64,000 nucleotides of DNA from Eledone cirrhosa (taxonomy: Eukaryota). Every line of letters starts with the position of its first letter. The stretch's first letter is position 1. Positions 15,263-64,000 of the stretch are shown piece after piece. Made by a program: the position numbers and the translations under genes. Where the stretch lies: contig OZ024741.1 in the NCBI GenBank assembly GCA_964016885.1, positions 27,342,001 through 27,406,000 of the forward strand, in the 5' to 3' direction. Under the pieces are notes generated by a model. The model was not told where the DNA came from and did not search any database. It saw only the letters and a list, made by a program, of their open reading frames with translations.

Positions 15263-15335
15263 TTTAAAGTAATACACATGAGTACAATACATATAATGTC
15301 CCTTTTTCTCTTTTTTCTTCTCTTTACATCAAACT

Positions 15336-15770: not shown

Positions 15771-15777
15771 TACACAG

Positions 15778-15998: not shown

Positions 15999-16043
15999 GT
16001 AAGGAAGATAGTGAGGCAGTAATATGGCCGGGGTCAGATTTAA

Positions 16044-16529: not shown

Positions 16530-16590
16530 ATCATCATCATCATCATCATCATCACATGTCTATTTTTCCACACTAGCATGGGTTAGAGGA
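16530..16590 (-). mobile_element. SINE 3' tail with (CAT)n
   Basis: (CAT)n..TTTTCCACACTAGCATGGGTTAGA matches 5126-5187. Confidence 0.65.
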
Positions 16591-16704
16591 GTTGTCCTGT
16601 TATGAGACAAGGCAGGAGGGACGTGGTTGGGGGAGGGTTGTTAGAGTATGGAAGGGGGAGAGGGAAAGTAGTACATACAGGATGCATGCTTCAACCCGTA
16701 CATA

Positions 16705-17085
16705 GCCCAACTAATTATGGAAAGAGTTAAATTAGATAAGATGCAGTTTGGTTTTGTGCCATGAATGAGCACCACAGATGCTCTCTTCTTATGGAGACAA
16801 TTACAAAAGCCTTTGAGAGAGTTCCACAATCTGTTATTTGGTGGTTCTTAAGACAATTGGGTGTAGATAAGTGAGTTGCAAGAGCATTGTAAGCCATATA
16901 CACCGGTGCAGTTAGCAAGGTAAGAATTTAGTGAGGAATTCAGTATGCAAGTAGATGTCTATAAAGGTTCAGTCATTAGCTCCCTCATGTTCTCCAGGCC
17001 ATAATAAAGGAGTTTATGACCAGATGGCCATGAAAACTTCAGTATGTTGATAACTTGGTTCTTATTGCTGAATCTGTGGGAACAG
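16705..17085 (+). mobile_element. Degraded RTE-type LINE reverse transcriptase fragment
   Basis: Fragments LDKMQFGFVP*MSTTDALF, FERVPQSVIWWFLRQLGV, EEFSMQVDVYKGSVIS and LQYVDNLVLIAES (decayed YADD), with stops and frameshifts. Confidence 0.8.
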
Positions 17086-17182
17086 AGCTGAGAATCAAAG
17101 GACTCAGTAAACCTAGCAAAGACCACCTCTGAGGATGGATTGGGTGTTTTTTGTTGTGGCACTGACACTATTACCTTACAAG

Positions 17183-17496
17183 CAAGGCCAGATTTAATGG
17201 GGGGCAAAGGGGGCAATTGCTCCAGGTCCCCTGCTGTTGGGGACCCCACCAGTGACAACCGTAGCAATTTATTTGTACCCTCAGCTGGGCTTTTTAATTT
17301 TAAGATGGTTAGAATTTTTTAATTTAATACCTGTATGTATAACTTTTCAATTCCAATTACTTGCACCAAGCTAAATTTGATATGAAAAATTCGGGGGTGA
17401 GGGGTGGTGGGATGCTTTATATTCTAATTTTTTTGTGTATGAGGGGCCCCTAAACCTGAAGTGCCCTGGGCCCTACAAGGTCTAAATCCAACCCTA
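17183..17496. mobile_element. Non-autonomous hAT-like MITE with 8-bp TSD
   Basis: Direct repeat CTTACAAG at 17175-17182 and 17497-17504. Degenerate TIRs CAAGGCCAGATTTA / TAAATCCAACCCTA, with GGGGCCCC subterminal motifs. Confidence 0.8.
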
Positions 17497-18114
17497 CTTA
17501 CAAGGTACAGTAGATGCTTTATGTCATGGAATCAACACTGTCATTTTACAAGGTGGACTGGATGTGTTTTATAGTATCACCAGTACTACCTCATTACATT
17601 TGTTAAAAGTCTATTTTCCATGTTTGGCAGCCCGGTTGTCATGCTCTGAGACTAGGGCAGACAGGTGAATATGTCAGGCTCATACATATTGTCCTGGCAT
17701 GGCCACCATGACTTGATGGCCTTCCTATTGAGAACAGTATAAATAGAATTTCTAAGGATATAACAGCATTTGTAATATAAATATTCTGAATATTCTGATT
17801 AAAAATAGCAACTATATGATGTCTATTCAGAAGACATTACTAAATACCTGTAGTGTTCATGTCATCAGATATTAAATCACACTCATAAAATTTCTACTTA
17901 GAAGAAAAAGCATTTAGATTCTTCTAGACAAACAAAGCTCTGGCATAAAGATAGCCATAAAAATAAAACTAATTTGCAAGTGCTATAGAAAGAAGCTAGT
18001 AGACCAAACTATTGAACAATATAGACATGTAGTCAATATTAGCAATATATGATACTCTACACATTGAAACACATCTTAGAGCCACAGAAAGTGTATTGTT
18101 ATATGAATTAAATT

Positions 18115-21100
18115 CATACTAACTACAGAACACACACACATACTAACTATTGAACAAATACTAACTACAGAACACATACACATACAAACTACAGAACACA
18201 TACATACAAACTACTGAACACATACTAACTACAGAATACATACACATACAAACTACAGAACACATACATAAAAACTACTGAACAAATACTAACTACAGAA
18301 CACATACACATATGCATACTAACTACAGAACACATACTAACTACAGAACACATACTAACTACAAAACACATACTAACTACAGAATACATACATACTAACT
18401 ACTGAACACATACTAACTACAGAACACATACTAACTACAGAACATATACACATACTAACTACTGAACACATACTAACTATAGAACACATACTAACTACAG
18501 AACACATACATAATAACTACAAAACACATACATACTAACTACAGAACACATACATACTAACTCCTGAACACATACTAACTACAGAACACATACACATACT
18601 AACTGCTGAACACATACTATCTATAGAACACACACGCATACTAACTACTGAACAAATACTAACTACAGAACATATACTAACTACAGAACACATACACATT
18701 CGAAGTACAGAACACATACTAACTACTGAACACATACTAACTACAGAACACATACTAACTACAGAACACATACACATACGAACTACAGAACACATACTAA
18801 CTACAGAACACATACACATACTAACTACAGAACACATACTAATTACAGAACACATACACATATTAACTACAAAACACATACTAACTACGGAACACATACT
18901 AACTACAGAAAACATACTAACTACAGAAAACATACTAACTACAGAACACATACTAACTACAGAACACATACTTACTACTGAACACATACTAACTACAGAA
19001 AACATACTAACTACAGAACACATATTAACTACAGAACACATACTAACTACAGAACCCATACAAACTACAGAACACATACTAACTACGGAACACATACAAT
19101 CTACAGAAAACATACTAACTACAGAAAACATACTTACTACAGAAAACATACTAACTACAGAAAACATACTAACTACAGAAAACATACTAACTACAGAAAA
19201 CATACTAACTACAGAAAACATACTAACTACAGAAAACATACTAACTACAGAACACTTACTAACTACAGAACACTTACTAACTACAGAAAACATACTAACT
19301 ACAGAACACATACTAACTACAGAAAACAAACTAACTACAGAAAACATACTAACTACAGAAAACATACTAACTACAGAAAACATACTAACTACAGAAAACA
19401 TACTAACTACAGAACACTTACTAACTACAGAACACTTACTAACTACAGAAAACATACTAACTACAGAACACATACTAACTACAGAAAACAAACTAACTAC
19501 AGAAAACATACTAACTACAGAACACATACTTACTACTGAACACATACATATTAACTACAGAACACATACTAACTACAGAACACATACACATACTAACTAC
19601 TGAACACATACTAACTACAAAACACATACTAACTACAAAACACATAGTAACTACAGTACACATACTAACTACTTGACACAAACATACTAACTACAGAACA
19701 CATACATGCTAACTACTGAACACATACTAACTACAGAACACATACTAACTACAGAACACATACACATACTAACCTCTGAACACATACTAACTAAAGAACA
19801 CATACACAGACTAACTACTGAACACATTAACTACTGAACACATACACATACTAACTACTGAAAACATACTAACTACAGAACACACACTAACTACTGAACA
19901 CATATTAACTACAGAACATACTAACTACAGAACACATACACATAATAACTACTGAACACATACTAACTACAGAACACATACATACTAACTACTGAATACA
20001 TACTAACTACAGAACACATACTAACTACAGAACACATACTAACTATAGAACACATACACATACTAACTACTAATCACATATTAACTACAGAACACATACT
20101 AACTACAGAACACATACTAACTACAGAACACATACTAATTACTGAACACATACTGACTACAGAACACATACTAACTACAGAACACATACTAACTACCGAA
20201 CACATACTAACTACTGAACACATACACATACTAACTACAGAACACATACACATACTAACTACAGAACACATTCACATACTAACTACAGAACACATACACA
20301 TACTAACTAAAGAACACACACATACTAACTACTGAACACATATTAACTACAGAACATATACTAACTACAGAATACATACACATACTAACTACAGAACACT
20401 TATATACTAACTACTGAATACATACTAACTACAGAACACATACTAACTACAGAACACATACTAACTATAGAACACATACACATACTAACTACTCATCACA
20501 TATTAACTACAGAACACATACTAACTACAGAACACATACTAACTATAGAACACATACACATACTAACTACTCATCACATTTTAACTACAGAACACATACT
20601 AACTACAAAACACATACATACTAACTATTGAACATATACTAACTACTGAACACATATTAACTACAGAACACATACTAATTACTGAACATATACTGACTAC
20701 AGAACACATACTAACTACAGAACACATACTAACTACCGAACACATACTAACTACAGAACACATACTAACTACAGGACACGTACTAACTACAGAACACATA
20801 CATACTAACTACTGAACACATACTAACTACTGAACACATACTAACTACAGAACACATACTCATACTAACTACAGAACACATACACATACTAACTACTGAA
20901 CACATACTAACTACAGAACACATACATACTAACTACTGAACACATACTAACTACAGAACACATACTAACTACTGAACACATACTGACTACAGAACACATA
21001 CTAACTACAGAACACATACTAACTACAGAACACATTCTAACTACAGAACACATGCACATATTAACTAATGAACACATACTAACTACAGAACACATACTAC

Positions 21101-24100
21101 CTACAGAACACATACTAACTACAGAACACATACATATACTAACTACAGAACACTTACTAACTACAGAACACATACACATACTAATTACTGAACACATACT
21201 AACTAAAGAAAACATACTAACTACTGAACACATACTAACTACTGAACACATACTAACTACAGAACATATACTAACTACAGAACAGATATTAACTACAGAA
21301 CACGTACATACTAACTACTGAACACATACTAACTACTGAACACATACTAACTACAGAACACATACTAACTACAGAACACATACTAACTACTGAACAGATA
21401 TTAACTACAGAACACATACTAACTACTGAACACATACTAACTATAGAACACATACTAACTACAGAACGCACACACATACTAACTACTGAAGACATACTAA
21501 CTGCAGAACACATACACATACTAACTAATAAACACATACAAACTACAGAACACATACTAACTACAGAACACATACTAACTACAGAACACATACTAACTAC
21601 TGAACACATACTAACTACTGATCACATGCTAACTACAGAACACATACTAACTACTGAACACATACTAACTACAGAACACATTCTAACTACAGAACACATA
21701 CACATATTAACTACTGAACACATACTAACTACAGAACACATACTAACTACTGAACACATACTAACTACAGAACACATACACATACTAACTACAGAACACT
21801 TACTAACTACAGAAAACATGCTAATTACACAACACATACTAACTGCAGAACACATACTAACTACAGAACACATACTAACTACTGAACAGATATTAACTAC
21901 TGAACACATAAATACTAACTACTGAACACATACTAACTACAGAACACATACTAACTACAGAACACATACTAACTACTGAACAAATACTAACTACAGAACA
22001 CATACACATACTAACTACTGAACCCATACTAACTATAGAACATACTAACTACTGAACACATACTAACTACTGAACACAAACTAACTACAGAACACATACT
22101 AACTACAGAACACATACTAACTACTGAACACATTCTAACTACAGAACACATACTAACTACTGAACACATACTAACTACAGAACACATACACATACTAACT
22201 CCTGAACACATACTAACTACAGAACACATACTAACTACTGAACAAATACTAACTACAGAACACATACACATACTAACTACTGAACCCATACTAACTATAG
22301 AACATACTAACTACTGAACACATACTAACTACTGAACACATACTAACTACAGAACACATACTAACTAGAGAACACATACTAACTACTGAACACATTCTAA
22401 CTACAGAACACATACTAACTACTGAACACATACTAACTACAGAACACATACACATACTAACTCCTGAACACATACTAACTACAGAACACATACTAACTAT
22501 TGAACACATACTAACTACAGAACCCATACTAACTACAGAACACATTCTAACTACAGAACACATACTAACTACAGAACACATTCTAACTACAGAACACATA
22601 CTAACTACAGAAAACATACTAACTACAGAACACATACTAACTTCAGAACACATACCAACTACAGAACACATACTAACTACAGAACACATACTAACTACAG
22701 AACACATACTAACTACTGAACACATACTAACTACTGAACACATACTAACTACAGAACACATACTAACTACTGAACACATTCTAACTACAGAACACATACT
22801 AACTACTGAGCACATACTAACTACAAAACACATACTAACTACTGAACACATACTAACTACAGAACACATACTAACTACTGAACACATTGTAACTACAGAA
22901 CACATACTAACTACAGAATACATACACATACTAACTACTGAACACATACTAACTACAGAACACATACTAACTACTGAACACATACTAACTACTGAACACA
23001 TACTAACTACTGAACACATACTAACTACAGAACACATACTAACTACAGAACATATACTAACGACTGAACACATACTAACTACAGAACACATACATACTAA
23101 CTACTGAACACAATCTAACTACAGAACACATACACATACTAACTACAGAACACATTCTAACTACAGAACACATACACATATTAACTACTGAACACATACT
23201 AACTACTGAAGACATACTAACTACAGAACACATACTATCTACAGAACACATACTAACTACAGAACACATACACATACTAACTACAGAACAGTTACTAACT
23301 ACAGAACACACACACATACTAACTACAGAACACATACTAACTACTGAACACATACTAGCTACAGAACACAAACTAACTACAGAACCCGTATTAACTACAG
23401 AACATATTCTAACTACAGAACCCATACAAACTACAGAACACATACTAACTACTGAACACATACTAACTACTGAACACATACTAACTAGAGAACACATACA
23501 CATACTAACTACTGAACACATACTACCTACAGAACATACTAGCTACTGAACACATACTAACTACTGAACACTAACTACAGAACACATACTAACTACAGAA
23601 CACATACTAACTACAGAACCCATACTAACTACAGAACACATTCTAACTACAGAACACATTCTATCTACAGAACACATACATATACTAGCTACTGAACACA
23701 TACTAACTACTGAACACATACTAACTACAGAACACATACTAACTACAGAACACATACTAACTACAGAACACATACTAACTACAGAACACATACTAACTAC
23801 AGAACACATACTAACTGCAGAACACATACATACTAACTACTGAACACATACTAATGACAGAACACATAGTAACTACAGAACACATACTAACTACAGAACA
23901 CAAACACATACTAACTACTGAACACATACTAACTACAGAACACATTCTAACTACAGAACACATACTAACTACAGAAAACATACTAACTACAGAACACATA
24001 CTTTCTACTGAACACATACACATACTAACTACTGAACACATACTAACTACTGAACACATACTAACTACAGAACACATACTAACTACAGAATACATACTAA

Positions 24101-27100
24101 CTACTGAACACATACTAACTACAGAAAACATACTAACTACTGAACACATACTTACTAACTACAGAACACATACATAATAACGACTAATCACATATTAACT
24201 ACAGAACACATACATACTACAGAACACATACTAACTGCAGAACACATACTAACGACTGAACACATACTAACTACTGAAAACATACACATACTAACTACAG
24301 AACACATACACATACTAACTACTGAACACATACTAAATACAGACCACATACACATACTAACTACTGAACACATACTAACTACAGAGCACATACACATAAT
24401 AACTACAGAACACATACACATACTAACTACTAAACACATACAAACTCCAGAACACATACTAACTACAGAACACATACACATACTAACTACTAAACACATA
24501 CAAACTCCAGAACACATACTAACTACTGAACAGATACTAACTACTGAACATATACTAACTACAGAACACATACTAACTACCGAACACATACTAACTACTG
24601 AAAACATACACATACTAACTACAGAACACATACACATACTAACTACTGAACACATACTAACTACAGAGCACATACACATAATAACTACAGAACACATACA
24701 CATACTAACTACTGAACACATACTAACTACAGAACACATACTAACTACTGAATACATACTAACTACAGAACCCATACTAACTACTGAACACATACTAACT
24801 ACAGAACACATACTAACTACAGAACACATACTAACTACTGAACACATACTACCTACAGAACACATTCACATACTAACTACTGAACACATACTAACTACAG
24901 AACACATACTAACTACTGAACACATACTACCTACAGAACCCATACTAACTACTGAACACATACTAACTACAGAACACATACTAACTACTGAACACATACT
25001 AACTACAGAACCCATACTAACTACAGAACACATACTAACTACTGAACACATACTAACTACAGAACACATACTAACTACTGAACACATACTAACTACAGAA
25101 CACATACACATACTAACTACTGAACACATACTAACTACAGAACACATACACATACTAACTACTGAACACATACTAACTACAGAACACATACTAACTACTG
25201 AACACATACTAACTACAGAACACATACACATACTAACTACTGAACACATACTAACTACAGAACACATACACATACTAACTACTGAACACATACTAACTAC
25301 TGAACACATACTACCTACAGAACCCATACTAACTACAGAACACATACTAACTACTGAACACATACTAACTACAGAACACATACACATACTAACTACTGAA
25401 CACATACTAACTACAGAACACATACACATACTAACTACTGAACACATACTAACTACAGAACACATACACATACTAACTACTGAACACATACTAACTACAG
25501 AACACATACACATACTAACTACTGAACACATACTAACTACAGAACACATACACATACTAACTACTGAACACATACTAACTACAGAACACATACACATACT
25601 AACTACTGAACACATACTAACTACAGAACACATACACATACTAACTACTGAACACATACTAACTACAGAACACATACACATACTAACTACTGAACACATA
25701 CTAACTACAGAACACATACACATACTAACTACTGAACACATACTAACTACTGAACACATACTACCTACAGAACCCATACTAACTACAGAACACATACTAA
25801 CTACTGAACACATACTAACTACTGAACACATACTACCTACAGAACCCATACTAACTACAGAACACATACTAACTACTGAACACATACTAACTACAGAACA
25901 CATACACATACTAACTACTGAACACATACTAACTACAGAACACATACACATACTAACTACTGAACACATACTAACTACAGAACACATACACATACTAACT
26001 ACTGAACACATACTAACTACAGAACACATACTACCTACAGAACCCATACTAACTACAGAACACATACTAACTACTGAACACATACTAACTACAGAACACA
26101 TACACATACTAACTACTGAACACATACTAACTACAGAACACATACACATACTAACTACTGAACACATACTAACTACAGAACACATACACATACTAACTAC
26201 TGAACACATACTAACTACAGAACACATACACATACTAACTACTGAACACATACTAACTACAGAACACATACTAACTACTGAACACATACTAACTACAGAA
26301 CACATACACATACTAACTACTGAACACATACTAACTACAGAACACATACACATACTAACTACTGAACACATACTAACTACTGAACACATACTACCTACAG
26401 AACCCATACTAACTACAGAACACATACTAACTACTGAACACATACTAACTACAGAACACATACACATACTAACTACTGAACACATACTAACTACAGAACA
26501 CATACACATACTAACTACTGAACACATACTAACTACAGAACACATACACATACTAACTACTGAACACATACTAACTACAGAACACATACACATACTAACT
26601 ACTGAACACATACTAACTACAGAACACATACTAACTACTGAACACATACTAACTACAGAACACATACACATACTAACTACTGAACACATACTAACTACAG
26701 AACACATACACATACTAACTACTGAACACATACTAACTACAGAACACATACTAACTACTGAACACATACTAACTACAGAACACATACACATACTAACTAC
26801 TGAACACATACTAACTACAGAACACATACTAACTACTGAACACATACTAACTACTGAACACATACTACCTACAGAACCCATACTAACTACAGAACACATA
26901 CTAACTACTGAACACATACTAACTACAGAACACATACTAACTACAGAACAAATTCTAACTACAGAAGACATACTAACTGCAGAACACATACACATACTAA
27001 CTACAGAACCCATACTAACTACTGAACACATACTAACTACAGAACACATACTAACTACAGAACACATACTAACTACTGAACACATACTACCTACAGAACA

Positions 27101-33100: not shown

Positions 33101-36100
33101 TACTAACGACTGAACACATACTAACTACAGAACACATCATACTAACTACTGAACACATACTAATGACAGAACACATAGTAACTACAGAACACATACTAAC
33201 TACAGAACACATACACATACTAACTACTGAACACATACTAACTACAGAACACATTCTAAATACAGAACACATACTAACTACAGAAAACATACTAACTACA
33301 GAACACATACACATACTAACTACTGAACACATACTAACTAAAGAACACATACTAACTACTGAACACATACTAACTACATAACACATACACTTACTAACTA
33401 CTAAACATACTAACTCCAGAACACATACTAACTACAGAACACATACTAACTACAGAGCACATACTAACTACAGAACACATACTAACTACAGAACACTTAC
33501 TAACTACAGAACACATACTAACTACAGAATACTTACTAACTACAGAACACATACTAACTACAGGACACATACTAACTACAGAACACACACACATACTAAC
33601 TACAGAACACATAATAACTGCAGAACACACACACATACTAACTACAGAACACTTACTAACTACAGAACACGCAGACATACTAACTACAGAACACATACTA
33701 ACTACAGAACACATACTAACTACTGAACACATACTAATTACAGAACACATACTAACTACAGAACACATACTACCTACTGAACACTTACATACTAACTAGA
33801 GAACACATACATACTAACTACTGGACACATACCAACTACTGAACACATACTAACTACAGAACACAAACACATACTAACTACTGAACACATACTAACTACA
33901 GAACACATTCTAACTACAGAACACATACTAACTACAGAAAACATACTAACTACAGAACACATACTTTCTACTGAACACATACTAACTACTGAACACATAC
34001 TAACTTCAGAACGCATACTAACTACAGAACACGTACATATACTAACGACTGAACACATACTAACTACTGAACACATACTAACTACAGAACACATACTAAC
34101 TACAGAATACATACTAACTACTGAACACATACTAACTACAGAAAACATACTAACTACTGAACACATACTTACTAACTACAGAACACATACATACTAACTA
34201 CTAATCACATATTAACTACAGAACACATACATACTAACTACTGAACAGATACTAACTACTGAACATATACTAACTACAGAACACATACTAATTACTGAAC
34301 ACATACTGAATACAGAACACATACTAACTACTGAACACATACTAACTACCGAACACATACTAACTACTGAAAACATACACATACTAACTACAGAACACAT
34401 ACACATACTAACTACTGAACACATACTAACTACAGAGCACATACACATAATAACTACAGAACACATACACATAGTAACTACTAAACACATACAAACTCCA
34501 GAACACATACTAACTACAGAACACATACTAACTACTGAACACATACTAACTACAGAACACATACTAACTACTGAATACATACTAACTACAGAACACATTC
34601 ACATACTAACTACTGAACACATGCTAACTACAAAACATACTAACTACTGAACACATACTAACTACTGAACACATACTAACTACAGAACACATACTAACTA
34701 CAGCACACATACTAACTACTGAACACATTCTAACTACAGAACACATACTAACTACTGAACACATACTAACTACTGAACACATACTAACTACAGAACACAT
34801 ACACATACTAACTACTGAACACATACTAACTACAGAACACATACTAACTACTGAACACATACTAACTACAGAACCCATACTAACTACAGAACAAATTCTA
34901 ACTACAGAACACATTCTAACTACAGAACACATACTAACTACAGAACACATACTAACTACAGAACTCATACACATACTAACTACTGAACACATACTAACTA
35001 CTGAACACATACTAACTACAGAACACATCATACTAACTACTGAACACATACTAATGACAGAACACATAGTAACTACAGAACACATACTAACTACAGAACA
35101 CATACACATACTAACTACTGAACACATACTAACTACAGAACACATTCTAAATACAGAACACATACTAACTACAGAAAACATACTAACTACAGAACACATA
35201 CACATACTAACTACTAAACATACTAACTCCAGAACACATACTAACTACTGAACAGATACTAACTACAGAACACGTACATACTAACTACTGAACACATACT
35301 AACTACTGAACACATACTAACTACAGAACACATGCTAACTACATAACACATACTAACTGCAGAATACATACTAACTACATAACACACACACATTCTAACT
35401 ACAGAACACTTACTAACTACAAAACACTCACACATACTAACTACAGAACACACACACATACTAACTACTGAAGACATACATACTAACTACAGAACACATA
35501 CATACTAACTACTGAACACATACTAACTACAGAACACATACAAACTACAGAACACTTACTAACTACTGAACACATACTAACTACAGAACACATACTAACT
35601 ACAGAGCACATACTAACTACAGAACACTTACTAACTACTGAACAGATACTAACTACAGAACACTTACTAACTACAGAACACTTACTAACTACTGAACACA
35701 TACTAACTACAGAACACTTACTAACTACAGAAGACACACACATACTAACTACAGAACACATACTAACTACAGAACACTTACTAACTACAGAACACTTACT
35801 AACTACAGAACACATACTAACTACAGAACACATACTAATTACAGAACACATACTAACTACAGAACACATACTAACTACAGAACACATAATAACTACAGAA
35901 CACTTACTAACTACTGAACACATTCTAACTACAGAACACTTACTAACTACAAAACACTCACACATACTAACTACAGAACACACACACATACTAACTACTG
36001 AAGACATACATACTAACTACAGAACACATACATACTAACTACTGAACACATACTAACTACAGAACACATACAAACTACAGAACACTTACTAACTACTGAA

Positions 36101-39100
36101 CACATACTAACTACAGAACACATACTAACTACAGAGCACATACTAACTACAGAACACTTACTAACTACTGAACAGATACTAACTACAGAACACTTACTAA
36201 CTACAGAACACTTACTAACTACTGAACACATACTAACTACAGAACACTTACTAACTACAGAAGACACACACATACTAACTACAGAACACATACTAACTAC
36301 AGAACACTTACTAACTACAGAACACTTACTAACTACAGAACACATACTAACTACAGAACACATACTAATTACAGAACACATACTAACTACAGAACACATA
36401 CTAACTACAGAACACATAATAACTACAGAACACTTACTAACTACTGAACACATACTAACTACAGAACACTTACTAACTACAGAACACTTACTAACTACTG
36501 AACACATACTAACTACAGAACACTTACTAACTACAGAACACACACACATACTAACTACCGAACACTTACTAACTACAGAACACACACACATTCTAACTAC
36601 AGAGCACATGCTGACTACAGAACACATACTAACTACAGAACACTTACTACCTACAGAACACTTACTAACTACTGAACACATACTAACTACAGAACACTTA
36701 CTAACTACAGAACACACACACATACTAACTACAGAACACTTACTAACTACAGAACACACACACATACTAACTACAGAACACATACTAACTACAGAACACT
36801 TACTAACTACAGAACACATACTAACTACAGAACACTTACTAACTACAGAACACATACTAACTACAGAACACTTACTAACTACAGAACACACACACATACT
36901 AACTACAGAACACATACTAACTACAGAACACATACTAACTACAAATCACTTACTAACTACAGAACACATACTAACTACAGAACACATACTAACTACAGAA
37001 CACATACTAACTACAGAACACTTACTAACTACAGAACACACACACATACTAACTACAGAACACATACTAACTACAGAACACACACACATACTAACTACAG
37101 AGCACATACTAACTACAGAAAACTTACTAACTACAGAACACATACTAACTACAGAACACTTACTAACTACAGAACACATACTAACTACAGAGCACATGCT
37201 AACTACAGAACACATACTAACTACAGAACACTTACTAACTACAGAACACTTACTAACTACAGAACACTTACTAACTACAGAACACTTACTAACTACAGAA
37301 CACATACTAACTACAGAACGCATACTAACTACAGAACGCATACTAAATACAGAACACTTACTAACTACAGAACATACTAACTACAGAACACTTACTAACT
37401 ACAGAACACATACTAACTACAGAACGCATACTAACTACAGAACGCATACTAACTACAGAACACTGACTAACTACAGAACACATACTAACTACAGAACACT
37501 TACTAACTACAGAACACATACTAACTACAGTACACTTACTAAATACAGAACACTTACTAACTACAGAACACTTACTAACTACAGAACACTTACTAACTAC
37601 AGAACACATACTAACTACAGAACGCATACTAACTACAGAACACTTACTAACTACAGAACTTACTAACTATAGAACACTTACTAACTACAGAACACTTACT
37701 AACTACAGAACACATACTAACTACAGAACACATACTAACTACAGAACACTTACTAACTACAGAACTCATACACATACTAACTACTGAACACATACTAACT
37801 ACAGAACACATACTAACTACAGAACACATACTAACTACAGAACGCATATTAACTGCAGAACACATACTAACGACTGAACACATACTAACTACAGAACACA
37901 TCATACTAACTACTGAACACATACTAATGACAGAACACATAGTAACTACAGAACACATACTAACTACAGAACACATACACATACTAACTACTGAACACAT
38001 ACTAACTACAGAACACATTCTAAATACAGAACACATACTAACTACAGAAAACATACTAACTACAGAACACATACACATACTAACTACTGAACACATACTA
38101 ACTAAAGAACACATACTAACTACTGAACACATACTAACTACAGAACACATACACATACTAACTACTAAACATACTAACTCCAGAACACATACTAACTACA
38201 GAACACATACTAACTACAGAGCACATACTAACTACAGAACACATACTAACTACAGAACACTTACTAACTACAGAACACATACTAACTACAGGACACATAC
38301 TAACTACAGAACACACACACATACTAACTACAGAACACATAATAACTGCAGAACACACACACATACTAACTACAGAACACTTACTAACTACAGAACACAC
38401 AGACATACTAACTACAGAACACATACTAACTACAGAACACATACTAACTACTGAACACATACTAATTACAGAACACATACTAACTACAGAACACATACTA
38501 CCTACTGAACACTTACATACTAACTAGAGAACACATACATACTAACTACTGGACACATACCAACTACTGAACACATACTAACTACAGAACACAAACACAT
38601 ACTAACTACTGAACACATACTAACTACAGAACACATTCTAACTACAGAACACATACTAACTACAGAAAACATACTAACTACAGAACACATACTTTCTACT
38701 GAACACATACTAACTACTGAACACATACTAACTTCAGAACACATACTAACTACAGAACACGTACATATACTAACGACTGAACACATACTAACTACTGAAC
38801 ACATACTAACTACAGAACACATACTAACTACAGAATACATACTAACTACTGAACACATACTAACTACAGAAAACATACTAACTACTGAACACATACTTAC
38901 TAACTACAGAACACATACATACTAACTACTAATCACATATTAACTACAGAACACATACATACTAACTACTGAACAGATACTAACTACTGAACATATACTA
39001 ACTACAGAACACATACTAATTACTGAACACATACTGAATACAGAACACATACTAACTACAGAACACATACTAACTACTGAACACATACTAACTACCGAAC

Positions 39101-42100
39101 ACATACTAACTACTGAAAACATACACATACTAACTACAGAACACATACACATACTAACTACTGAACACATACTAACTACAGAGCACATACACATAATAAC
39201 TACAGAACACATACACATAGTAACTACTAAACACATACAAACTCCAGAACACATACTAACTACAGAACACATACTAACTACTGAACACATACTAACTACA
39301 GAACACATACTAACTACTGAATACATACTAACTACAGAACACATTCACATACTAACTACTGAACACATGCTAACTACAAAACATACTAACTACTGAACAC
39401 ATACTAACTACTGAACACATACTAACTACAGAACACATATTAACTACAGAACACATACTAACTACTGAACACATTCTAACTACAGAACACATACTAACTA
39501 CTGAACACATACTAACTACAGAACACATACACATACTAACTACTGAACACATACTAACTACAGAACACATACTAACTACTGAACACATACTAACTACAGA
39601 ACCCATACTAACTACAGAACAAATTCTAACTACAGAACACATTCTAACTACAGAACACATACTAACTACAGAACACATACTAACTACAGAACTCATACAC
39701 ATACTAACTACTGAACACATACTAACTACTGAACACATACTAACTACAGAACACATCATACTAACTACTGAACACATACTAATGACAGAACACATAGTAA
39801 CTACAGAACACATACTAACTACAGAACACATACACATACTAACTACTGAACACATACTAACTACAGAACACATTCTAAATACAGAACACATACTAACTAC
39901 AGAAAACATACTAACTACAGAACACATACACATACTAACTACTAAACATACTAACTCCAGAACACATACTAACTACTGAACAGATACTAACTACAGAACA
40001 CGTACATACTAACTACTGAACACATACTAACTACTGAACACATACTAACTACAGAACACATGCTAACTACATAACACATACTAACTGCAGAATACATACT
40101 AACTACATAACACACACACATTCTAACTACAGAACACTTACTAACTACAAAACACTCACACATACTAACTACAGAACACACACACATACTAACTACTGAA
40201 GACATACATACTAACTACAGAACACATACATACTAACTACTGAACACATACTAACTACAGAACACATACAAACTACAGAACACTTACTAACTACTGAACA
40301 CATACTAACTACAGAACACATACTAACTACAGAGCACATACTAACTACAGAACACTTACTAACTACTGAACAGATACTAACTACAGAACACTTACTAACT
40401 ACAGAACACTTACTAACTACTGAACACATACTAACTACAGAACACTTACTAACTACAGAAGACACACACATACTAACTACAGAACACATACTAACTACAG
40501 AACACTTACTAACTACAGAACACTTACTAACTACAGAACACATACTAACTACAGAACACATACTAATTACAGAACACATACTAACTACAGAACACATACT
40601 AACTACAGAACACATAATAACTACAGAACACTTACTAACTACTGAACACATACTAACTACAGAACACTTACTAACTACAGAACACTTACTAACTACTGAA
40701 CACATACTAACTACAGAACACTTACTAACTACAGAACACACACACATACTAACTACCGAACACTTACTAACTACAGAACACACACACATTCTAACTACAG
40801 AGCACATGCTGACTACAGAACACATACTAACTACAGAACACTTACTACCTACAGAACACTTACTAACTACTGAACACATACTAACTACAGAACACTTACT
40901 AACTACAGAACACACACACATACTAACTACAGAACACTTACTAACTACAGAACACTTACTAACTACTGAACACATACTAACTACAGAACACTTACTAACT
41001 ACAGAACACACACACATACTAACTACAGAACACATACTAACTACAGAACACTTACTAACTACAGAACACATACTAACTACAGAACACTTACTAACTACAG
41101 AACACATACTAACTACAGAACACTTACTAACTACAGAACACACACACATACTAACTACAGAACACATACTAACTACAGAACACATACTAACTACAAATCA
41201 CTTACTAACTACAGAACACATACTAACTACAGAACACATACTAACTACAGAACACATACTAACTACAGAACACTTACTAACTACAGAACACACACACATA
41301 CTAACTACAGAACACATACTAACTACAGAACACATACTAACTACAGAACAAACACACATACTAACTACAGAGCACATACTAACTACAGAAAACTTACTAA
41401 CTACAGAACACATACTAACTACAGAACACTTACTAACTACAGAACACATACTAACTACAGAGCACATGCTAACTACAGAACACATACTAAATACAGAACA
41501 CATACTAACTACAGAAAACATACTAACTACAGAACACATACACATACTAACTACTGAACACATACTAACTAAAGAACACATACTAACTACTGAACACATA
41601 CTAACTACAGAACACATACACATACTAACTACTAAACATACTAACTCCAGAACACATACTAACTACAGAACACATACTAACTACAGAGCACATACTAACT
41701 ACAGAACACATACTAACTACAGAACACTTACTAACTACAGAACACATACTAACTACAGGACACATACTAACTACAGAACACACACACATACTAACTACAG
41801 AACACATAATAACTGCAGAACACACACACATACTAACTACAGAACACTTACTAACTACAGAACACACAGACATACTAACTACAGAACACATACTAACTAC
41901 TGAACACATACTAATTACAGAACACATACTAACTACAGAACACATACTACCTACTGAACACTTACATACTAACTAGAGAACACATACATACTAACTACTG
42001 GACACATACCAACTACTGAACACATACTAACTACAGAACACAAACACATACTAACTACTGAACACATACTAACTACAGAACACATTCTAACTACAGAACA

Positions 42101-54100: not shown

Positions 54101-57100
54101 GAACACATAGTAACTACAGAACACATACTAACTACTGAACAGATACTAACTACAGAAAACATACTAACTACTGAACAGATACTAACTCAGAACATATACT
54201 AACTACAGAACACTTACTACCTACAGAATACACACACATACTAACTACAGAACAAATACTAACTACAGAACAAATACTAACTACAGAACATATACACATA
54301 CTAACTACAGAACACTTACTAACTACAGAACACACACACATACTAACTACAGAACACATACTAACTACTGAACACAAACTAACTACAGAACATACCTAGA
54401 TACTAACTACAGAACACATACTAACTACTGAACACATACTAACTACAGAACACATACTAACTACAGAACCCATACTAACTACAGAACATATTCTAACTAC
54501 AGAACCCATACAAACTACAGAACACATACTAACTACTGAACACATACTAACTACAGAACACATACTAACTACTGAACAGATACTAACTACAGAACACATA
54601 CTAACTACAGAACACATACTAACTACTGAGCAGATACTAACTACAGAACACATACTAACTACAGAACACACACACATCCTATCTACAGAACACTTACTAA
54701 CTACAGAACACATACTAACTACAGAACACTTACTAACTACAGAACACACAGACATACTAACTACAGAACACATACTAACTACAGAACACATACTAACTAC
54801 TGAACACATACTAACTACAGAACACATACACGTACTAACTACTGAACACATACTAACTACAGAACACATACTACAGAACACATACTAACTACAGAACACA
54901 TACTAACTACTGAACACATACTAACTACAGAACACATACTAACTACAGAACACATACTAACTACTGAACACATACTACCTACAGAACACTTACTACAGAA
55001 CACACACACATACTAACTACAGAGCACATACTAACTACAGAACACATACTAACTACAGAACACATACTAACTACAGAATACTCAATAACTACAGAACACA
55101 TACTAACTACAGAACACATATTAACTACTAACACATACTAACTACAGAACACATACACATAATAACTACTGAACACATACTAACTACAGAACACATACTA
55201 ACTACTGAACAGATACTGACTACAGAACACATACATACTAACTACTGAACACATACTAACTACAGAACACATTCTAACTACAGAACACATACAAACTACA
55301 GAACACTTACTAACTACTGAACACATACTAACTACAGAACACATACTAACTACTGAACACATACTAACTACAGAACACACACACATACTAACTACAGAGC
55401 ACATACTAACTACAGAACACTTACTAACTACTGAACAGATACTAACTACAGAACACTTACTAACTACAGAACACTTACTAATTACTGAACACATACTAAC
55501 TACAGAACACTTACTAACTACAGAAGACACACACATACTAACTACAGAACACATACTAACTACAGAACACTTACTAACTACAGAACACATACTAACTACA
55601 GAACACATACTAACTACAGAACACATACTAACTACAGAACACATACTAACTACAGAACACATAATAACTACAGAACACTTACTAACTACTGAACACATAC
55701 TAACTACAGAACACATACTAACTACAGAACACATACTAACTACAGAACACATACTATCTACAGAACACTTACTAACTACAGAACACATACTAACTACAGA
55801 ACACTTACTAACTACAGAACACTTACTAACTACAGAACACATACTAACTACAGAACACTTACTAACTACAGAACACTTACTAACTACAGAACACTTACTA
55901 ACTACTGAACACATACTAACTACAGAACACTTACTAACTACAGAACACACACACATACTAACTACAGAACACTTACTAACTACAGAACACTTACTAACTA
56001 CTGAACACATACTAACTACAGAACACTTACTAACTACAGAAGACACACACATTCTAACTACAGAGCACATACTGACTACAGAACACATACTAAGTACAGA
56101 ACACTTACTAACTACAGAACACTTACTAACTACTGAACACATACTAACTACAGAACACTTACTAACTACAGAACACACACACATACTAATTACAGAAAAC
56201 TTACTAACTACAGAACACTTACTAACTACTGAACACGTACTAACTGCAGAACACTTACTAACTACAGAATACACACACATACTAACTACAGAACACATAC
56301 TAACTACAGAACACTTACTAACTACAGAACACATACTAACTACAGAACACTTACTAACTACAGAACACATACTAACTACAGAACACTTACTAACTACAGA
56401 ACACACACATACTAACTACAGAACACATACTAACTACAGAACACATACTAACTACAGAACACTTACTAACTACATAACACATACTAACTACAGAACACAT
56501 ACTAACTACAGAACACATACTAACTACATAACACACACATACTAACTACAGAGCACATACTAACTATAGAAAACTTACTAACTACAGAACACATACTAAC
56601 TACAGAGCACATGTTAACTACAGAACACATACTAACTACAGAACACTTACTAACTACAGAACACTTACTGACTACAGAACACTTACTAACTACAGAACAC
56701 ATACTAACTACAGAACGCATACTAACTACAGAACGCATACTAACTACAGAACACTGACTAACTACAGAACACATACTAACTACAGAACACATACTAACTA
56801 CAGAACACTTACTAACTACAGAACACATACTAACTACAGAGCACATACTAACTACAGAACACATACTAACTACAGAACACTTACTAACTACAGAACACAT
56901 ACTAACTACAGAATACTTACTAACTACAGAACACATACTAACTACAGGACACATACTAACTACAGAACACACACACACATACTAACTACAGAACACATAC
57001 TAACTACAGAACACATACACATACTAACTACTGAACACATACTAACTACTGAACACATACTAACTACAGAACCCATACTAAATACTGAACACATACTAAC

Positions 57101-60100
57101 TACAGAACACATACTAACTACAGAACACATACTAACTACTGAACACATACTAACTACAGAATACATACATACTAACTACTGCACACATACTAACTGCAGA
57201 ACACATAATAACTGCAGAACACACACACATACTAACTACAGAACACATACTAACTACAGAACACATACTAACTACTGAACACATACTAATTACAGAACAC
57301 ATACTACCTGCTGAACACTTACATACTAACTAGAGAACACATACATACTAACTACTGGACACATACCAACTACTGAACACATACACATACTAACTACTAA
57401 ACACATACTAACTACAGAACACATACTAACTACTGAACACATACTAACTACTGGACACATACTAATTACAGAACACATACTAAGTACAGAACACATGCTA
57501 ACTACTGAACAGATACTAACTACAGAACACATACTGACTACTGAACAGACACTAACTACAGAACACATACTAACTACAGAACACATACTAGCTACTGAAC
57601 ACATATTAACTACAGAACACATACTAACTACTGAAAACATACTAACTACAGAACACATACATACTAACTACTGAACATATACTAACTACAGAACACATAC
57701 TAACTACAGAACACATACTAACTTCAGAACACATACTAACTACAGAACACACACACATACTAACTACAGAACACACACACATACTAACTACAGAACACAC
57801 ACACATACTAACTACAGAACACTTACTATCTACAGAACACACACACATACTAACTACAGAACACATACTAACTACTGAACACATACTAACTACTGAACAC
57901 ATACTAACTACTGAACACATACTAAGTACAGAACACATAGTAACTACAGGACACATACTAACTACTGAACAGATACTAACTACAGAACACATACTAACTA
58001 CAGAACACATACTAACTACAGAACACTTACTAACTACAGAACACATACTAACTGCAGAACACATACTAACTACAGAACATATACACATACTAACTACAGA
58101 ACACTTCCTAACTACAGAACACACACACATACTAACTACAGAACACATACTAACTACTGAACACAAACTAACTACAGAACACATACTAACTACAGAACAC
58201 ATGCTAACTACTGAACAGATGCTAACTACAGAACACATACTAACTACAGAACACTTACTAACTACAGAACACACACACACATGCTAACTACAGAACACAT
58301 ACATACTAACTACTGAACACATACTAACTACAGAACACATACTAACTGCAGAACACATACTAACTGCAGAATACATACTAACTACAGAACACTTACTAAC
58401 TACAGAACACACACACATACTAACTACAGAACACATACTAACTACTGAACACATACTAACTACAGAACACATACTAACTACAGAACCCATACTAACTACA
58501 GAACATATTCTAACTACAGAACCCATACAAACTACAGAACACATACTAACTACTGAACACATACTAACTACAGAACACATACTAACTACGGAACACATAC
58601 TAACTACTGAGCAGATACTAACTACAGAACACATACTAACTACAGAACACGCACACATACTATCTACAGAACACTTACTAACTACATAACACATTCTAAC
58701 TACAGAACACATACTAACTACTGAACACATACTAACTACAGAACACATACTACAGAACACATACTAACTACAGAACACATACTAACTACTGAACACATAC
58801 TAACTACAAAACACATACTAACTACTGAACACATACTAACTACTGAACACATACACATACTAACTACAGAACACATATTACAGAACACATACTAACTACT
58901 GAACACATACTACCTACAGAACACTTACTACAGAACACACACACATACTAACTACAGAATACTCAATAACTACAGAACACATACTAACTACAGAACACAC
59001 ACGCATACAAACTACAGAACACATACTAACTACAGAACACATACTAACTACTGAAAATATACTATCTACTGAACACATACTAACTACAGAACACATATTA
59101 ACTACTAACACATACTAACTACAGAACACATACATATACTAACTACTGAACACATACTAACTACAGAACACATACTAACTACTGAACAGATACTAACTAC
59201 AGAACACATACATACTAACTACTGAACACATACTAACTACAGAACACATACAAACTACAGAACACTTACTAACTACAGAACACATACTAACTACAGAGCA
59301 CATACTAACTACAGAACACTTACTAACTACTGAACAGATACTAACTACAGAACACTTACTAACTACAGAACAGTTACTAACTACTGAACACATACTAACT
59401 ACAGAACACTTATTAACTACAGAAGACACACACATACTAACTACAGAACACATACTAACTACAGAACACTTACTAACTACAGAACACTTACTAACTACAG
59501 AACACATACTAACTACAGAACACATACTAACTACAGAACACATACTAACTACTGAACACATACTAACTACAGAACACATACTAACTACTGAACACATACT
59601 AACTACTGAACACATACTAATTACAGAACACATACTAAGTACAGAACACATGCAAACTACTGAACAGATACTAACTACAGAACACATACTGACTACTGAA
59701 CAGATACTAACTACAGAACACATACTAACTACAGAACACATACTAGCTACTGAACACATATTAACTACAGAACACATACTAACTACTGAACACATACTAA
59801 CTACAGAACACATACATACTAACTACTGAACATATACTAACTACAGAACACATACTAACTACAGAACACATACTAACTGCAGAACACATACTAACTACAG
59901 AACACACACACATACTAACTACAGAACACTTACTAACTACAGAACACACACACATACTAACTACAGAACACACACACATACTAACTACAGAACACTTACT
60001 ATCTACAGAACACACACACATACTAACTACAGAACACATACTAACTACTGAACACATACTAACTACTGAACACATACTAACTACTGAACACATAGTAACT

Positions 60101-63100
60101 ACAGGACACATACTAACTACTGAACAGATACTAACTACAGAACACATACTAACTACAGAACACATACTAACTACTGAACAGATACTAACTCAGAACATAT
60201 ACTAACTACAGAACACTTACTACCTACAGAACACACACACATACTAACTACAGAACAAATACTAACTACAGAACATATACACATACTAACTACAGAACAC
60301 TTACTAACTACAGAACATACACACATACTAACTACAGAACACATACTAACTACTGAACACAAACTAACTACAGAACACATAGTAACTACAGAACACATGC
60401 TAACTACTGAACAGATGCTAACTACAGAACACTTACTAACTACAGAACACACACACACATGCTAACTACAGAACACATACATACTAACTACTGAACACAT
60501 ACTAACTACAGAACACATACTAACTGCAGAACACATACTAACTGCAGAACACATACTAACTACAGAACACATACTAACTACTGAACACAAACTAACTACA
60601 GAACACATACTAACTACAGAACACATGCTAACTACTGAACAGATGCTAACTACAGAACACATACTAACTACAGAACGCTTACTAACTACAGAACACACAC
60701 ACACATGCTAACTACAGAATGCTTACTAACTACAGAACACACACACACATGCTAACTACAGAACACATACATACTAACTACTGAACACATACTAACTACA
60801 GAACACATACTAACTGCAGAACACATACTAACTGCAGAATACATACTAACTACAGAACACTTACTAACTACAGAACACACACACATACTAACTACAGAAC
60901 ACATACTAACTACTGAACACATACTAACTACAGAACACATACTAACTACAGAACCCATACTAACTACAGAACATATTCTAACTACAGAACCCATACAAAC
61001 TACAGAACACATACTAACTACAGAACACATACTAACTACTGAGCAGATACTAACTACAGAACACATACTAACTACAGAACACGCACACATACTATCTACA
61101 GAACACATTCTAACTACAGAACACATACTAACTACTGAACACATACTAACTACAGAACACATACTACAGAACACATACTAACTACAGAACACATACTAAC
61201 TACTGAACACATACTAACTACAGAACACACACTAACTACAGAACACATACTAACTACTGAACACATACACATACTAACTACAGAACACATATTACAGAAG
61301 ACATACTAACTACTGAACACATACTACCTACAGAACACTTACTACACAACACACACACATACTAACTACAGAATACTCAATAACTACAGAACACATACTA
61401 ACTACAGAACACACACGCATACAAACTACAGAACACATACTAACTACAGAACACACACACATACTAACTACAGAAAACATACTAACTACTGAACATATAC
61501 TATCTACTGAACACATACTAACTACAGAACTTATATTAACTACTAACACATACTAACTACAGAACACATACACATACTAACTACTGAACACATACTAACT
61601 ACAGAACACATACTAACTACTGAACAGATACTAACTACAGAACACATACATACTAACTACTGAACACATACTAACTACAGAACACATACAAACTACAGAA
61701 CACTTACTAACTACAGAACACATACTAACTACAGAGCACATACTAACTACAGAACACTTACTAACTATTGAACAGATACTAACTACAGAACACTTACTAA
61801 CTACAGAACACTTACTAACTACTGAACACATACTAACTACAGAACACTTACTAACTACAGAAGACACACACATACTAACTACAGAACACATACTAACTAC
61901 AGAACACTTACTAACTACAGAACACTTACTAACTACAGAACACATACTAACTACAGAACACATACTAACTACAGAACACATACTAACTACAGAACACATA
62001 CTAACTACAGAACACATACTGACTACAGAACACATACTAACTACAGAACACATACTAACTACAGAACACTTACTAACTACAGAACACTTACTAACTACAG
62101 AACACTTACTAACTACTGAACACATACTAACTACAGAACACTTACTAACTACAGAACACACACACATACTAACTACCGAATACTTACTAACTACAGAACA
62201 CTTACTAACTACTGAACAGATACTAACTACAGAACACTTACTAACTACAGAACACACACACATACTAACTACAGAACACATACTAACTACAGAACACTTA
62301 CTAACTACAGAACACATACTAACTACAGAACACTTACTAACTACAGAACACATACTAACTACAGAACACTTACTAACTACAGAACACACACACATACTAA
62401 CTACAGAACACATACTAACTACAGATCACTTACTAACTACAGAACACATACTAACTACAGAACACATACTAACTACAGAACACATACTAACTACAGAACA
62501 CTTACTAACTACAGAACACACACACATACTAACTACAGAACACATACTAACTACAGAACACATACTAACTACAGAACACATACTAACTACAGAACACACA
62601 CACATACTAACTACAGAGCACATACTAACTACAGAAAACTTACTAACTACAGAACACATACTAACTACAGAACACATACTAACTACAGAACACTTACTAA
62701 CTACAGAACACTTACTAACTACTGAACACATACTAACTACAGAACACATACTAACTACTGAAAATATACTATCTACTGAACACATACTAACTACAGAACA
62801 CATATTAACTACTAACACATACTAACTACAGAACACATACATATACTAACTACTGAACACATACTAACTACAGAACACATACTAACTACTGAACAGATAC
62901 TAACTACAGAACACATACATACTAACTACTGAACACATACTAACTACAGAACACATACAAACTACAGAACACTTACTAACTACAGAACACATACTAACTA
63001 CAGAGCACATACTAACTACAGAACACTTACTAACTACTGAACAGATACTAACTACAGAACACTTACTAACTACAGAACAGTTACTAACTACTGAACACAT

Positions 63101-64000
63101 ACTAACTACAGAACACTTATTAACTACAGAAGACACACACATACTAACTACAGAACACATACTAACTACAGAACACTTACTAACTACAGAACACTTACTA
63201 ACTACAGAACACATACTAACTACAGAACACATACTAACTACAGAACACATACTAACTACTGAACACATACTAACTACAGAACACATACTAACTACTGAAC
63301 ACATACTAACTACTGAACACATACTAATTACAGAACACATACTAAGTACAGAACACATGCAAACTACTGAACAGATACTAACTACAGAACACATACTGAC
63401 TACTGAACAGATACTAACTACAGAACACATACTAACTACAGAACACATACTAGCTACTGAACACATATTAACTACAGAACACATACTAACTACTGAACAC
63501 ATACTAACTACAGAACACATACATACTAACTACTGAACATATACTAACTACAGAACACATACTAACTACAGAACACATACTAACTGCAGAACACATACTA
63601 ACTACAGAACACACACACATACTAACTACAGAACACTTACTAACTACAGAACACACACACATACTAACTACAGAACACACACACATACTAACTACAGAAC
63701 ACTTACTATCTACAGAACACACACACATACTAACTACAGAACACATACTAACTACTGAACACATACTAACTACTGAACACATACTAACTACTGAACACAT
63801 AGTAACTACAGGACACATACTAACTACTGAACAGATACTAACTACAGAACACATACTAACTACAGAACACATACTAACTACTGAACAGATACTAACTCAG
63901 AACATATACTAACTACAGAACACTTACTACCTACAGAACACACACACATACTAACTACAGAACATATACACATACTAACTACAGAACACTTACTAACTAC
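18115..64000. repeat. Giant 18-bp satellite array ACTAACTAC(A/T)GAACACAT with 16/22/24-bp variants and higher-order duplications
   Basis: Continuous periodicity to the window end. It yields the MCSVVS/TTEHIL pseudo-ORFs. Confidence 0.98.

What the first reader, a model, noticed from the sequence alone, without database searches (positions are those of the whole stretch)
18115..64000. Intronic satellite is a >45-kb polymer of the branch-point / STAR-protein motif UACUAAC on the POU6 sense strand
Seen: the consensus monomer reads ...CA-TACTAAC-TACAG-AACA..., i.e. TACTAAC followed by a YAG, in the same orientation as the POU6 exons. About 46 kb at ~18-20 nt per unit gives roughly 2,300-2,500 units, most with the motif intact (estimate, not a count). 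Established: UACUAAC is the optimal U2 snRNA-pairing branch point and SF1/BBP site. ACUAAY with a nearby UAAY half-site is the QKI/HOW (STAR) response element, which tandem monomers satisfy. Inference: if transcribed as part of the POU6 intron, each nascent RNA would be a highly multivalent scaffold or sponge for SF1/QKI/U2 snRNP. It could form a nuclear RNP body like Drosophila Y-loops or HSATIII bodies, and could regulate splicing of the last homeodomain exon. The common variants (CAG/CTG, CACAT/CACTT, +ACACAT) fall outside the heptamer, which hints at constraint but is not quantified.
Basis: partly seen in the sequence, partly recalled or inferred. Interest (0 to 1): 0.8.

Follow-up and report, generated by a model that had tools for sequence, protein, structure and literature searches.

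The report
Octopus POU6 intron branch-point satellite
A 59-kb run of an 18-base repeat fills the last intron of an octopod brain-development gene and carries the splicing signal UACUAAC about 2,600 times, but this is likely a chance product of a genome full of such repeat arrays rather than a selected splicing-factor sponge.

Summary
The array runs from window 18,115 to about 77,259 (13 kb past the window). It has about 3,160 units of an 18-mer with 2,591 TACTAAC, all on the POU6 sense strand, and fills 59.1 of the 63.2 kb of the last intron; the missing homeodomain exon starts at 79,181. It is single-locus (197 of 197 exact dimers) and holds multi-kb duplications at 99-100% identity.

The functional reading is not supported where it could be tested. 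The heptamer varies as much as its flanks (2.5% against 2.7% once two common variants are set aside; p=0.24 with them in), and the branch adenosine is not protected. This array holds about 5% of some 43,000 tandem-TACTAAC matches in the genome, and same-composition heptamers without the motif reach 36,000-40,000. Eleven of 79 sampled 10-kb stretches lie wholly in a satellite, each with a different monomer. The other strand of this array reads as a polymer of 5'- and 3'-splice-like words.

Best reading: a neutral, recently expanded intronic satellite that likely binds SF1/QKI incidentally when transcribed. Expression, protein binding and conservation across species remain untested.

The parts
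18115..64000 (+). 18-bp satellite (consensus CATACTAACTACAGAACA), the part inside the window: 2,451 units, 1,990 TACTAAC. It continues 13 kb past the window end (to G000:C2:27419259, extended coordinate 77,259) and grades into a CA/CT microsatellite; the last POU6 coding exon follows 1.9 kb later (extended 79,181-79,305; L003:5181-5305).
15778..15998 (+). POU6 exon: end of the POU-specific domain, linker and first half of the homeodomain; donor GT at 15,999
15999..18114 (+). Non-array 5' part of the last intron; its last 436 bases are essentially single-copy
14801..14979 (+). POU6 exon: first part of the POU-specific domain
1..3771 (.). Unrelated 30-bp array (4.5 kb, starts before the window) in an upstream POU6 intron; no TACTAAC; serves as control
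8128..9452 (.). Unrelated 12-bp array in a POU6 intron; no TACTAAC
10819..11696 (.). Unrelated 20-bp array in a POU6 intron; no TACTAAC

Best explanation
This is a single-locus 59-kb tandem array of an 18-mer inside the last POU6 intron, which likely grew recently by slippage and unequal exchange and likely carries TACTAAC by chance, as one of an estimated several thousand private satellites in this genome. Shown: position, size, single locus, near-identical multi-kb internal duplications, a variant gradient along the array, and no extra conservation of the heptamer. Inferred: POU6 transcription reads through the array. The intron is likely still spliced from 15,999 to 79,180, because the sense strand offers no 5' splice site and no U-rich tract, the AG nearest each heptamer is too close to it, and the true acceptor lies 1.9 kb further on. 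SF1 or a QKI/HOW protein would likely bind the nascent RNA as a side effect. If orientation was filtered at all, this is likely the less harmful one, since the other strand reads as a polymer of donor-like and acceptor-like words.
For: Single locus: 197 exact dimer matches genome-wide, 197 of them here. Recent growth: 4,118 bp repeated at offset 4,240 with 99.93% identity, 2,472 bp at 100%, and many similar blocks. No constraint: in 3,018 of 3,164 units kept as clean, substitutions average 2.5% in the heptamer and 2.7% in the other positions without positions 2 and 13 (6.0% with them); Mann-Whitney p=0.24 with all 11; p=0.22-0.25 after collapsing shared contexts. Intact heptamers are 83.9% against 82.7% expected from the flanking rate; the branch A varies more (81 units) than the tolerant base before it (41). 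Base rate: 11 of 79 sampled 10-kb stretches lie wholly in one satellite, 11 different monomers; 32 of 33 sampled monomers carry some word of a 14-motif panel (recalled motifs) and 1 of 33 carries TACTAAC. Tandem TACTAAC triples: 33,318 plus 10,127 genome-wide, about 2,200 of them here. Same-composition controls: 42,246, 39,847, 35,691, 23,451, 13,466 and 3,570. The first 100 listed places fall in 15 other loci on C1, on both strands; one is a 32.6-kb array with about 725 TACTAAC. Five other arrays inside the POU6 coding span, and a sixth just upstream of the first exon found, have no TACTAAC. The sense strand has 0 GTRAG and 0 AGGT; the antisense strand has 2,274 GTATGT, 511 GTAAGT and T-rich YAGs.
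Against: The heptamer does avoid both high-frequency variants and most insertions. At its last position the tolerated C>T change is 55 of 102 changes, against 17 of 43 and 34 of 87 at two other C positions (copies are not independent). TACTAAC's genome-wide count is the highest of the 8 heptamers tried, narrowly, and second without this array. Variation within one array measures recent turnover, and weak selection on total motif number would not show. The near-identical blocks could partly be assembly duplication. No RNA data and no relatives were examined.
Confidence: 0.8

Rival explanations
1. A selected Gomafu-like scaffold: the nascent or excised intron is kept as a multivalent UACUAAC polymer that gathers SF1/QKI/U2 into a nuclear focus and tunes neural splicing, including that of the last POU6 exon.
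For: 2,591 sense-strand sites in unstructured RNA; 2,478 bipartite QKI patterns; a STAR-dimer domain in the genome. Gomafu does this with 3-7 sites per RNA and delays splicing of a weak-branch-point substrate in vitro (PMC3116199). POU6 is expressed in squid ganglia (PMC4407788 abstract). Satellite-filled introns bind specific proteins in Drosophila (PMC6508621 abstract).
Against: No excess conservation of the heptamer or of its branch A. The motif is not enriched over control heptamers, and this array is about 5% of the tandem matches. The array is single-locus and rapidly turning over. The SF1/QKI competition described in PMC13004596 concerns branch sites 20-60 nt from the acceptor (passages), whereas this array ends 1.9 kb from it.
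Confidence: 0.07
2. The array acts as a run of cryptic acceptors: the branch A of one unit pairs with the CAG 24 nt downstream, giving a POU6 isoform that lacks homeodomain helix 3 and ends in an EHILTT repeat, or causing premature termination.
For: AGs end 6 and 24 nt after the branch A; 2,404 YAG on the sense strand; two of three frames of the consensus are open, with ORFs up to 1,567 codons. From the sequence, a splice from the phase-1 donor to a consensus CAG would be in the EHILTT frame. One POU6 acceptor is T-poor.
Against: No YAG in the array has more than 7 T in the 17 nt before it (most 3-4), against 8-9 at five of six POU6 acceptors. There is no downstream donor to define an exon, and only 1 AATAAA in 59 kb. 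The last exon is intact with a normal acceptor. AGs closer than 12-15 nt to a branch point can be bypassed (PMC1431707 passage).
Confidence: 0.05
3. The array matters through its length or chromatin and not through its motif: 59 kb of repeat delays or dampens full-length POU6 transcripts (intron delay, heterochromatin), and any monomer tolerated by splicing would do.
For: It makes up 94% of the intron. POU6 has other introns enlarged by unrelated arrays. Satellite-filled giant introns need a special expression programme in Drosophila (PMC6508621 abstract).
Against: Such arrays are everywhere in this genome, including one of 77 kb starting 47 kb beyond the POU6 stop. Nothing singles this one out. 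No expression data.
Confidence: 0.08

Closest known systems
Gomafu/MIAT/RNCR2 lncRNA (PMC3116199; text parts 1-2 of 5 and passages read)
   Same: Tandem UACUAAC on the transcribed strand; neural context (POU6 in squid ganglia, by orthology); predicted SF1 ligand.
   Different: Gomafu has 3-7 sites in an exon of a stable, polyadenylated, nuclear-retained RNA, and the motif is kept across human, mouse and chicken while the rest diverges. Here there are about 2,600 sites in an intron of a coding gene, in a young single-locus satellite whose heptamer is no better kept than its flanks. The same paper lists other genes with several TACTAAC that are not conserved, and shows that eight copies in Slc8a1 do not cause nuclear retention.
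Drosophila Y-loop genes kl-3 and kl-5 with satellite-filled giant introns (PMC6508621; abstract and outline seen)
   Same: An intron made almost wholly of tandem repeats, which must be transcribed for the gene to be completed.
   Different: Those are megabases of simple satellite, with shown transcription, loops and dedicated proteins. This one is 59 kb of an 18-mer with none of that shown.
Locus-specific intronic minisatellite / large VNTR arrays (recalled class)
   Same: Short unit, single locus, variant units interspersed, block duplications, microsatellite-like edge.
   Different: Larger than typical minisatellites, and the unit contains a perfect yeast-type branch point. Length polymorphism was not tested.
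SF1/QKI competition at ACUAA branch sites (PMC13004596; passages seen)
   Same: Tandem ACUAAC elements that both proteins can bind.
   Different: Those elements are real branch sites 34-43 nt before a 3' splice site. These lie 1.9-61 kb before it, without a U-rich tract.

Membership tests
Gomafu-like UACUAAC sponge RNA | Tandem UACUAAC on the transcribed strand | tested here: met
   2,591 copies on the POU6 sense strand, inside the intron
Gomafu-like UACUAAC sponge RNA | Motif better conserved than the surrounding sequence (within the array) | tested here: not met
   2.5% against 2.7% without the two polymorphic sites; p=0.24 with them; branch A not protected
Gomafu-like UACUAAC sponge RNA | Motif conserved at the orthologous locus across species | not tested
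Gomafu-like UACUAAC sponge RNA | Motif lies in the exon of a stable, nuclear-retained non-coding RNA | tested here: inconclusive
   The array is intronic in a coding gene and has no Rfam match in 9,000-24,000; a stable intron-derived RNA was not tested
Gomafu-like UACUAAC sponge RNA | Binds SF1/QKI and alters splicing | not testable with these tools
   Needs CLIP, EMSA or knock-down; a STAR-dimer domain is present in the genome
Functional branch point / 3' splice site | Branch point followed by a U-rich tract and an AG beyond about 12-15 nt | tested here: not met
   AG at +6 and +24, but most YAG have 3-4 T in the 17 nt before, against 8-9 at five of six POU6 acceptors; the rule is from mammalian work (PMC1431707)
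Y-loop-type satellite giant intron | Intron consists mostly of tandem repeat | tested here: met
   59.1 of 63.2 kb
Y-loop-type satellite giant intron | Megabase scale | tested here: not met
   Intron is 63,182 bp
Y-loop-type satellite giant intron | Visible nascent RNP structure with dedicated RNA-binding proteins | not testable with these tools
   Needs RNA-FISH and immunostaining
Locus-specific satellite / large minisatellite | Head-to-tail short unit confined to one locus | tested here: met
   197 of 197 exact dimer matches; diverged relatives elsewhere are not excluded by an exact pattern
Locus-specific satellite / large minisatellite | Signs of turnover by unequal exchange (block duplications, variant gradients) | tested here: met
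   Multi-kb blocks at 99-100% identity; position-2 variant rises from 0-3% to about 30% along the array
Locus-specific satellite / large minisatellite | Length varies between individuals | not tested
   One assembly only

The most novel reading that the evidence does not exclude
Each nascent POU6 transcript carries about 2,600 exposed UACUAAC sites, the equivalent of several hundred Gomafu molecules, and builds a local SF1/QKI body in octopod neurons that tunes splicing: an intron-borne, satellite-built counterpart of Gomafu, perhaps one of many among this genome's TACTAAC arrays.
Probability: 0.07. Interest if true: 0.75.

Novelty: new member of a known kind. Interest (0 to 1): 0.2.

Why it matters
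As a neutral array it matters little by itself. It does show that a spliceosome likely copes with about 2,600 perfect branch-point words in one intron of an intact developmental gene, which makes it a natural test of how much decoy a long intron tolerates. The broader background may be of more interest: roughly a seventh of sampled 10-kb stretches of this genome lie inside large satellites with unrelated monomers. If the sponge reading were true, it would be a satellite-built, cis-anchored splicing-factor body in a cephalopod neural gene. No paper held all of 'TACTAAC', 'satellite' and 'tandem array' (0 papers). Three searches on octopus satellites listed no paper whose title concerns them. 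That library lacks most subscription journals, so absence from print is not shown.

Tried and rejected
Rfam on window 9,000-24,000: 0 matches. RNA fold of 300 nt: no structure beyond shuffles, 122 of 200 fold as well. Origin from a dispersed element: the 436 bases before the array gave itself and one weak 54-base match, so no seed element was found; that search skips simple repeats. The early contrast of 33,318 against 4,065 for the reversed control, and the high count of CTAACAT, suggested that CTAAC-bearing satellites are enriched. This was rejected when TATCAAC (35,691) and CAATACT (39,847), which lack the motif, proved as common. Long ORFs in the array were set aside, since two of three frames of the consensus have no stop. 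Orientation of TACTAAC arrays relative to host genes was not measured: there is no annotation and only the first 100 places are listed per search. Two look-ups in earlier findings returned nothing. No supplements were read.
Full report
Observation. The array begins at window 18,115. Between there and 64,000 it has 1,990 TACTAAC in 2,451 units, and the whole window has none on the minus strand. The consensus unit is CATACTAACTACAGAACA. The window is G000:C2:27342001-27406000 in a 3.0-Gb assembly. Adjoining stretches show that the array runs on to about 77,259 in extended window coordinates: 59.1 kb, 3,164 units parsed over 18,115-77,245 and 2,591 TACTAAC.

Host gene. Exons at 14,801-14,979 and 15,778-15,998 carry the Pou and Homeodomain domains. 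The second is 100% identical over 73 aa to an Octopus vulgaris POU6 protein, while an upstream low-complexity exon is 77-81% identical, so the source is another octopod. The rest of the homeodomain is an intact exon at 79,181-79,305 with a T-rich acceptor. The intron is 15,999-79,180 (63,182 bp), 94% of it array, and the array ends 1.9 kb before the acceptor. That the intron is transcribed is inferred from the intact gene. POU6 is expressed in ganglia of the squid Idiosepius (PMC4407788, abstract seen).

History of the array. An exact two-unit pattern matches 197 times in the genome and 197 times in this array, so it is single-locus as far as an exact pattern can show. It contains blocks such as 4,118 bp repeated at offset 4,240 with 99.93% identity and 2,472 bp at 100%, and the position-2 variant rises from 0-3% near the start to about 30% near the end. 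This is the pattern expected from recent unequal exchange (inference); assembly duplication is not excluded. No dispersed element was found at its 5' flank, and its 3' end grades into a CA microsatellite.

Constraint test. I kept 3,018 of 3,164 units (no deletion, at most 3 substitutions; 146 dropped). Substitutions average 2.5% in the heptamer and 6.0% in the other 11 positions. The gap comes from two common variants (position 2, 17%; position 13, 25%); without them the others average 2.7%. Medians are 2.7% and 3.0%, Mann-Whitney p=0.24 on all positions, and p=0.22-0.25 after collapsing copies that share context. Four of the 18 possible 7-base windows are as invariant or more so. In 18 control arrays, 27.5% of 599 windows show a contrast as strong. 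Intact heptamers are 83.9% of clean units against 82.7% expected from the flanking rate, and the branch A is changed in 81 units against 41 for the tolerant base before it. Mildly in favour of constraint: the tolerated C>T at the last position is 55 of 102 changes, against 17 of 43 and 34 of 87 at two other C positions; copies are not independent.

Chance. I sampled 79 stretches of 10 kb: 19 at fixed offsets on 19 contigs and 60 at about 31-Mb steps on C1-C7, so the sample is systematic and not strictly random. Tandem repeats cover 32%. Eleven of 79 stretches (14%; 95% interval 7-24%) lie wholly in one array, with 11 different monomers. If such arrays average about 60 kb (assumed; four measured whole are 59, 77, 33 and 33 kb), there are some 8,000. 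The chance that a monomer holds TACTAAC on a given strand is 0.38% by shuffling, or about 0.17% from the non-repeat background (55 matches on both strands of 533,090 bases). That gives roughly 14-30 large arrays with the motif on a given strand, and several of them intronic and sense (inference; the intronic share is unknown). Direct counts agree. Three tandem TACTAAC within 3-30 bases match 33,318 times when followed by A, C or G and 10,127 times when followed by T-N-not A. Of these, 33 and 2,214 are in this array, about 5%; the sum may double-count a few starts. Heptamers of the same composition give 42,246 (CTAACAT), 39,847 (CAATACT), 35,691 (TATCAAC), 23,451 (CAACTAT), 13,466 (TCATAAC) and 3,570 (TACAATC), and the reversed controls give 4,065 and 289. 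TACTAAC is thus at the top of the range, narrowly, and second without this array; these counts are dominated by a few large arrays. The first 100 places listed fall in 15 other loci on C1 with different monomers (6 plus, 8 minus, 1 both). One is 32.6 kb with about 725 TACTAAC. One of 33 sampled monomers holds TACTAAC, and 32 of 33 hold some word of a 14-motif panel recalled from memory, so almost any satellite here invites a story of this kind. Five other arrays inside the POU6 coding span and one just upstream of the first exon found have no TACTAAC, while a 77-kb array 47 kb beyond the stop has 797 ACTAAY on the same strand.

Splicing logic. On the sense strand the array has 0 GTRAG, 0 AGGT, 1 AATAAA and 2,404 YAG, most with 3-4 T in the 17 bases before and none with more than 7. 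Five of six POU6 acceptors have 8-9 (three of the six were placed from alignment boundaries). The sixth has 3, with a U-rich tract about 450 nt upstream and a 493-nt AG-free gap, so a T-poor acceptor is not excluded outright. AGs end 6 and 24 nt after the branch A, and AGs within 12-15 nt of a branch point can be bypassed (PMC1431707, passages; mammalian data). The antisense strand has 2,274 GTATGT, 511 GTAAGT and 6,651 YAG, mostly with 7-9 T before them. A splice-like motif would have been noticed in either orientation, and the observed one is likely the safer (inference).

What would still work. A 300-nt piece is unstructured (z=0.34), the QKI pattern matches 2,478 times, and the genome encodes a STAR-dimer domain. 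Gomafu binds SF1 with 3-7 such sites and delays splicing of a weak substrate in vitro; the same paper shows that multiple copies in other genes are not conserved and do not cause nuclear retention (PMC3116199, parts 1-2 of 5 and passages). Incidental binding to the nascent intron is therefore plausible, perhaps as likely as not. Selected function is a different claim, and the two tests of it that could be run here, motif constraint and motif enrichment, gave no support. SF1/QKI competition is described at real branch sites 34-43 nt from an acceptor (PMC13004596, passages). Y-loop introns are megabases long with shown protein partners (PMC6508621, abstract).

Verdict. An ordinary, recently expanded intronic satellite with an eye-catching unit (0.80). 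Rivals: selected sponge or nuclear body (0.07), length or chromatin effect (0.08), cryptic acceptors (0.05). Cross-species conservation, expression, junction use and genome-wide orientation were not tested and could change this. Searches for a printed description of such an array found none (0 papers; search listings only, none on octopus satellites by title). Interest 0.2.

Noticed in passing
window 15,283-15,777: The acceptor of the 15,778 exon is T-poor (3 T in 17 nt). A U-rich tract lies at about 15,299-15,327, followed by a 493-nt AG-free stretch made mostly of an (ACC)n repeat. It looks like a distant-branch-point intron created by a repeat growing between tract and AG.
   Followed up: partly
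G000 samples L052-L130: 11 of 79 sampled 10-kb stretches lie wholly in a satellite, each with a different 7-54-bp monomer, and tandem repeats cover 32% of the sample: the genome seems to hold thousands of private large satellites.
   Followed up: partly
window 18,115-64,000, minus strand: The antisense strand is a polymer of donor-like words (2,274 GTATGT, 511 GTAAGT in the whole array) and T-rich YAGs. The position-2 variant makes the sense strand read ACTTAC, which resembles the U1 snRNA 5' end (recalled).
   Followed up: partly
G000:C2:27468134-27545590 (extended window 126,134-203,590): A 77-kb array of a 32-mer starts 47 kb beyond the POU6 stop and carries 797 ACTAAY and 1,932 CTRAY on the same strand; gene context unknown.
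   Followed up: partly
G000:C1:1530950-1563550 (L139-L142): A 32.6-kb array of a 32-mer with about 725 TACTAAC on the minus strand, next to unrelated arrays of 33 kb and 17 kb; gene context not examined.
   Followed up: partly
window 11,743-12,705: Long low-complexity POU6 exon rich in Ser, Asn and Gly runs, 77-81% identical to O. vulgaris in the alignable parts while the POU domain is identical.
   Followed up: no
window 5,540-6,150: The sequence reads like a decayed DNA-transposase fragment between short inverted ends (seen by eye; the resemblance is recalled and was not tested).
   Followed up: no
L068 (G000:C18:10000001-10010000): A 16-bp satellite with a telomere-like G-rich unit fills the whole 10-kb stretch at an internal position.
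   Followed up: no
window 18,005-18,020: A 13-base word in the non-array flank recurs in the second array unit about 135 bases later; possibly a relic of the seed sequence, possibly chance.
   Followed up: no
G000 contigs C1-C4: Four scaffolds of 379-443 Mb followed by much smaller ones of 135 Mb or less, an uneven karyotype that may reflect fusions.
   Followed up: no
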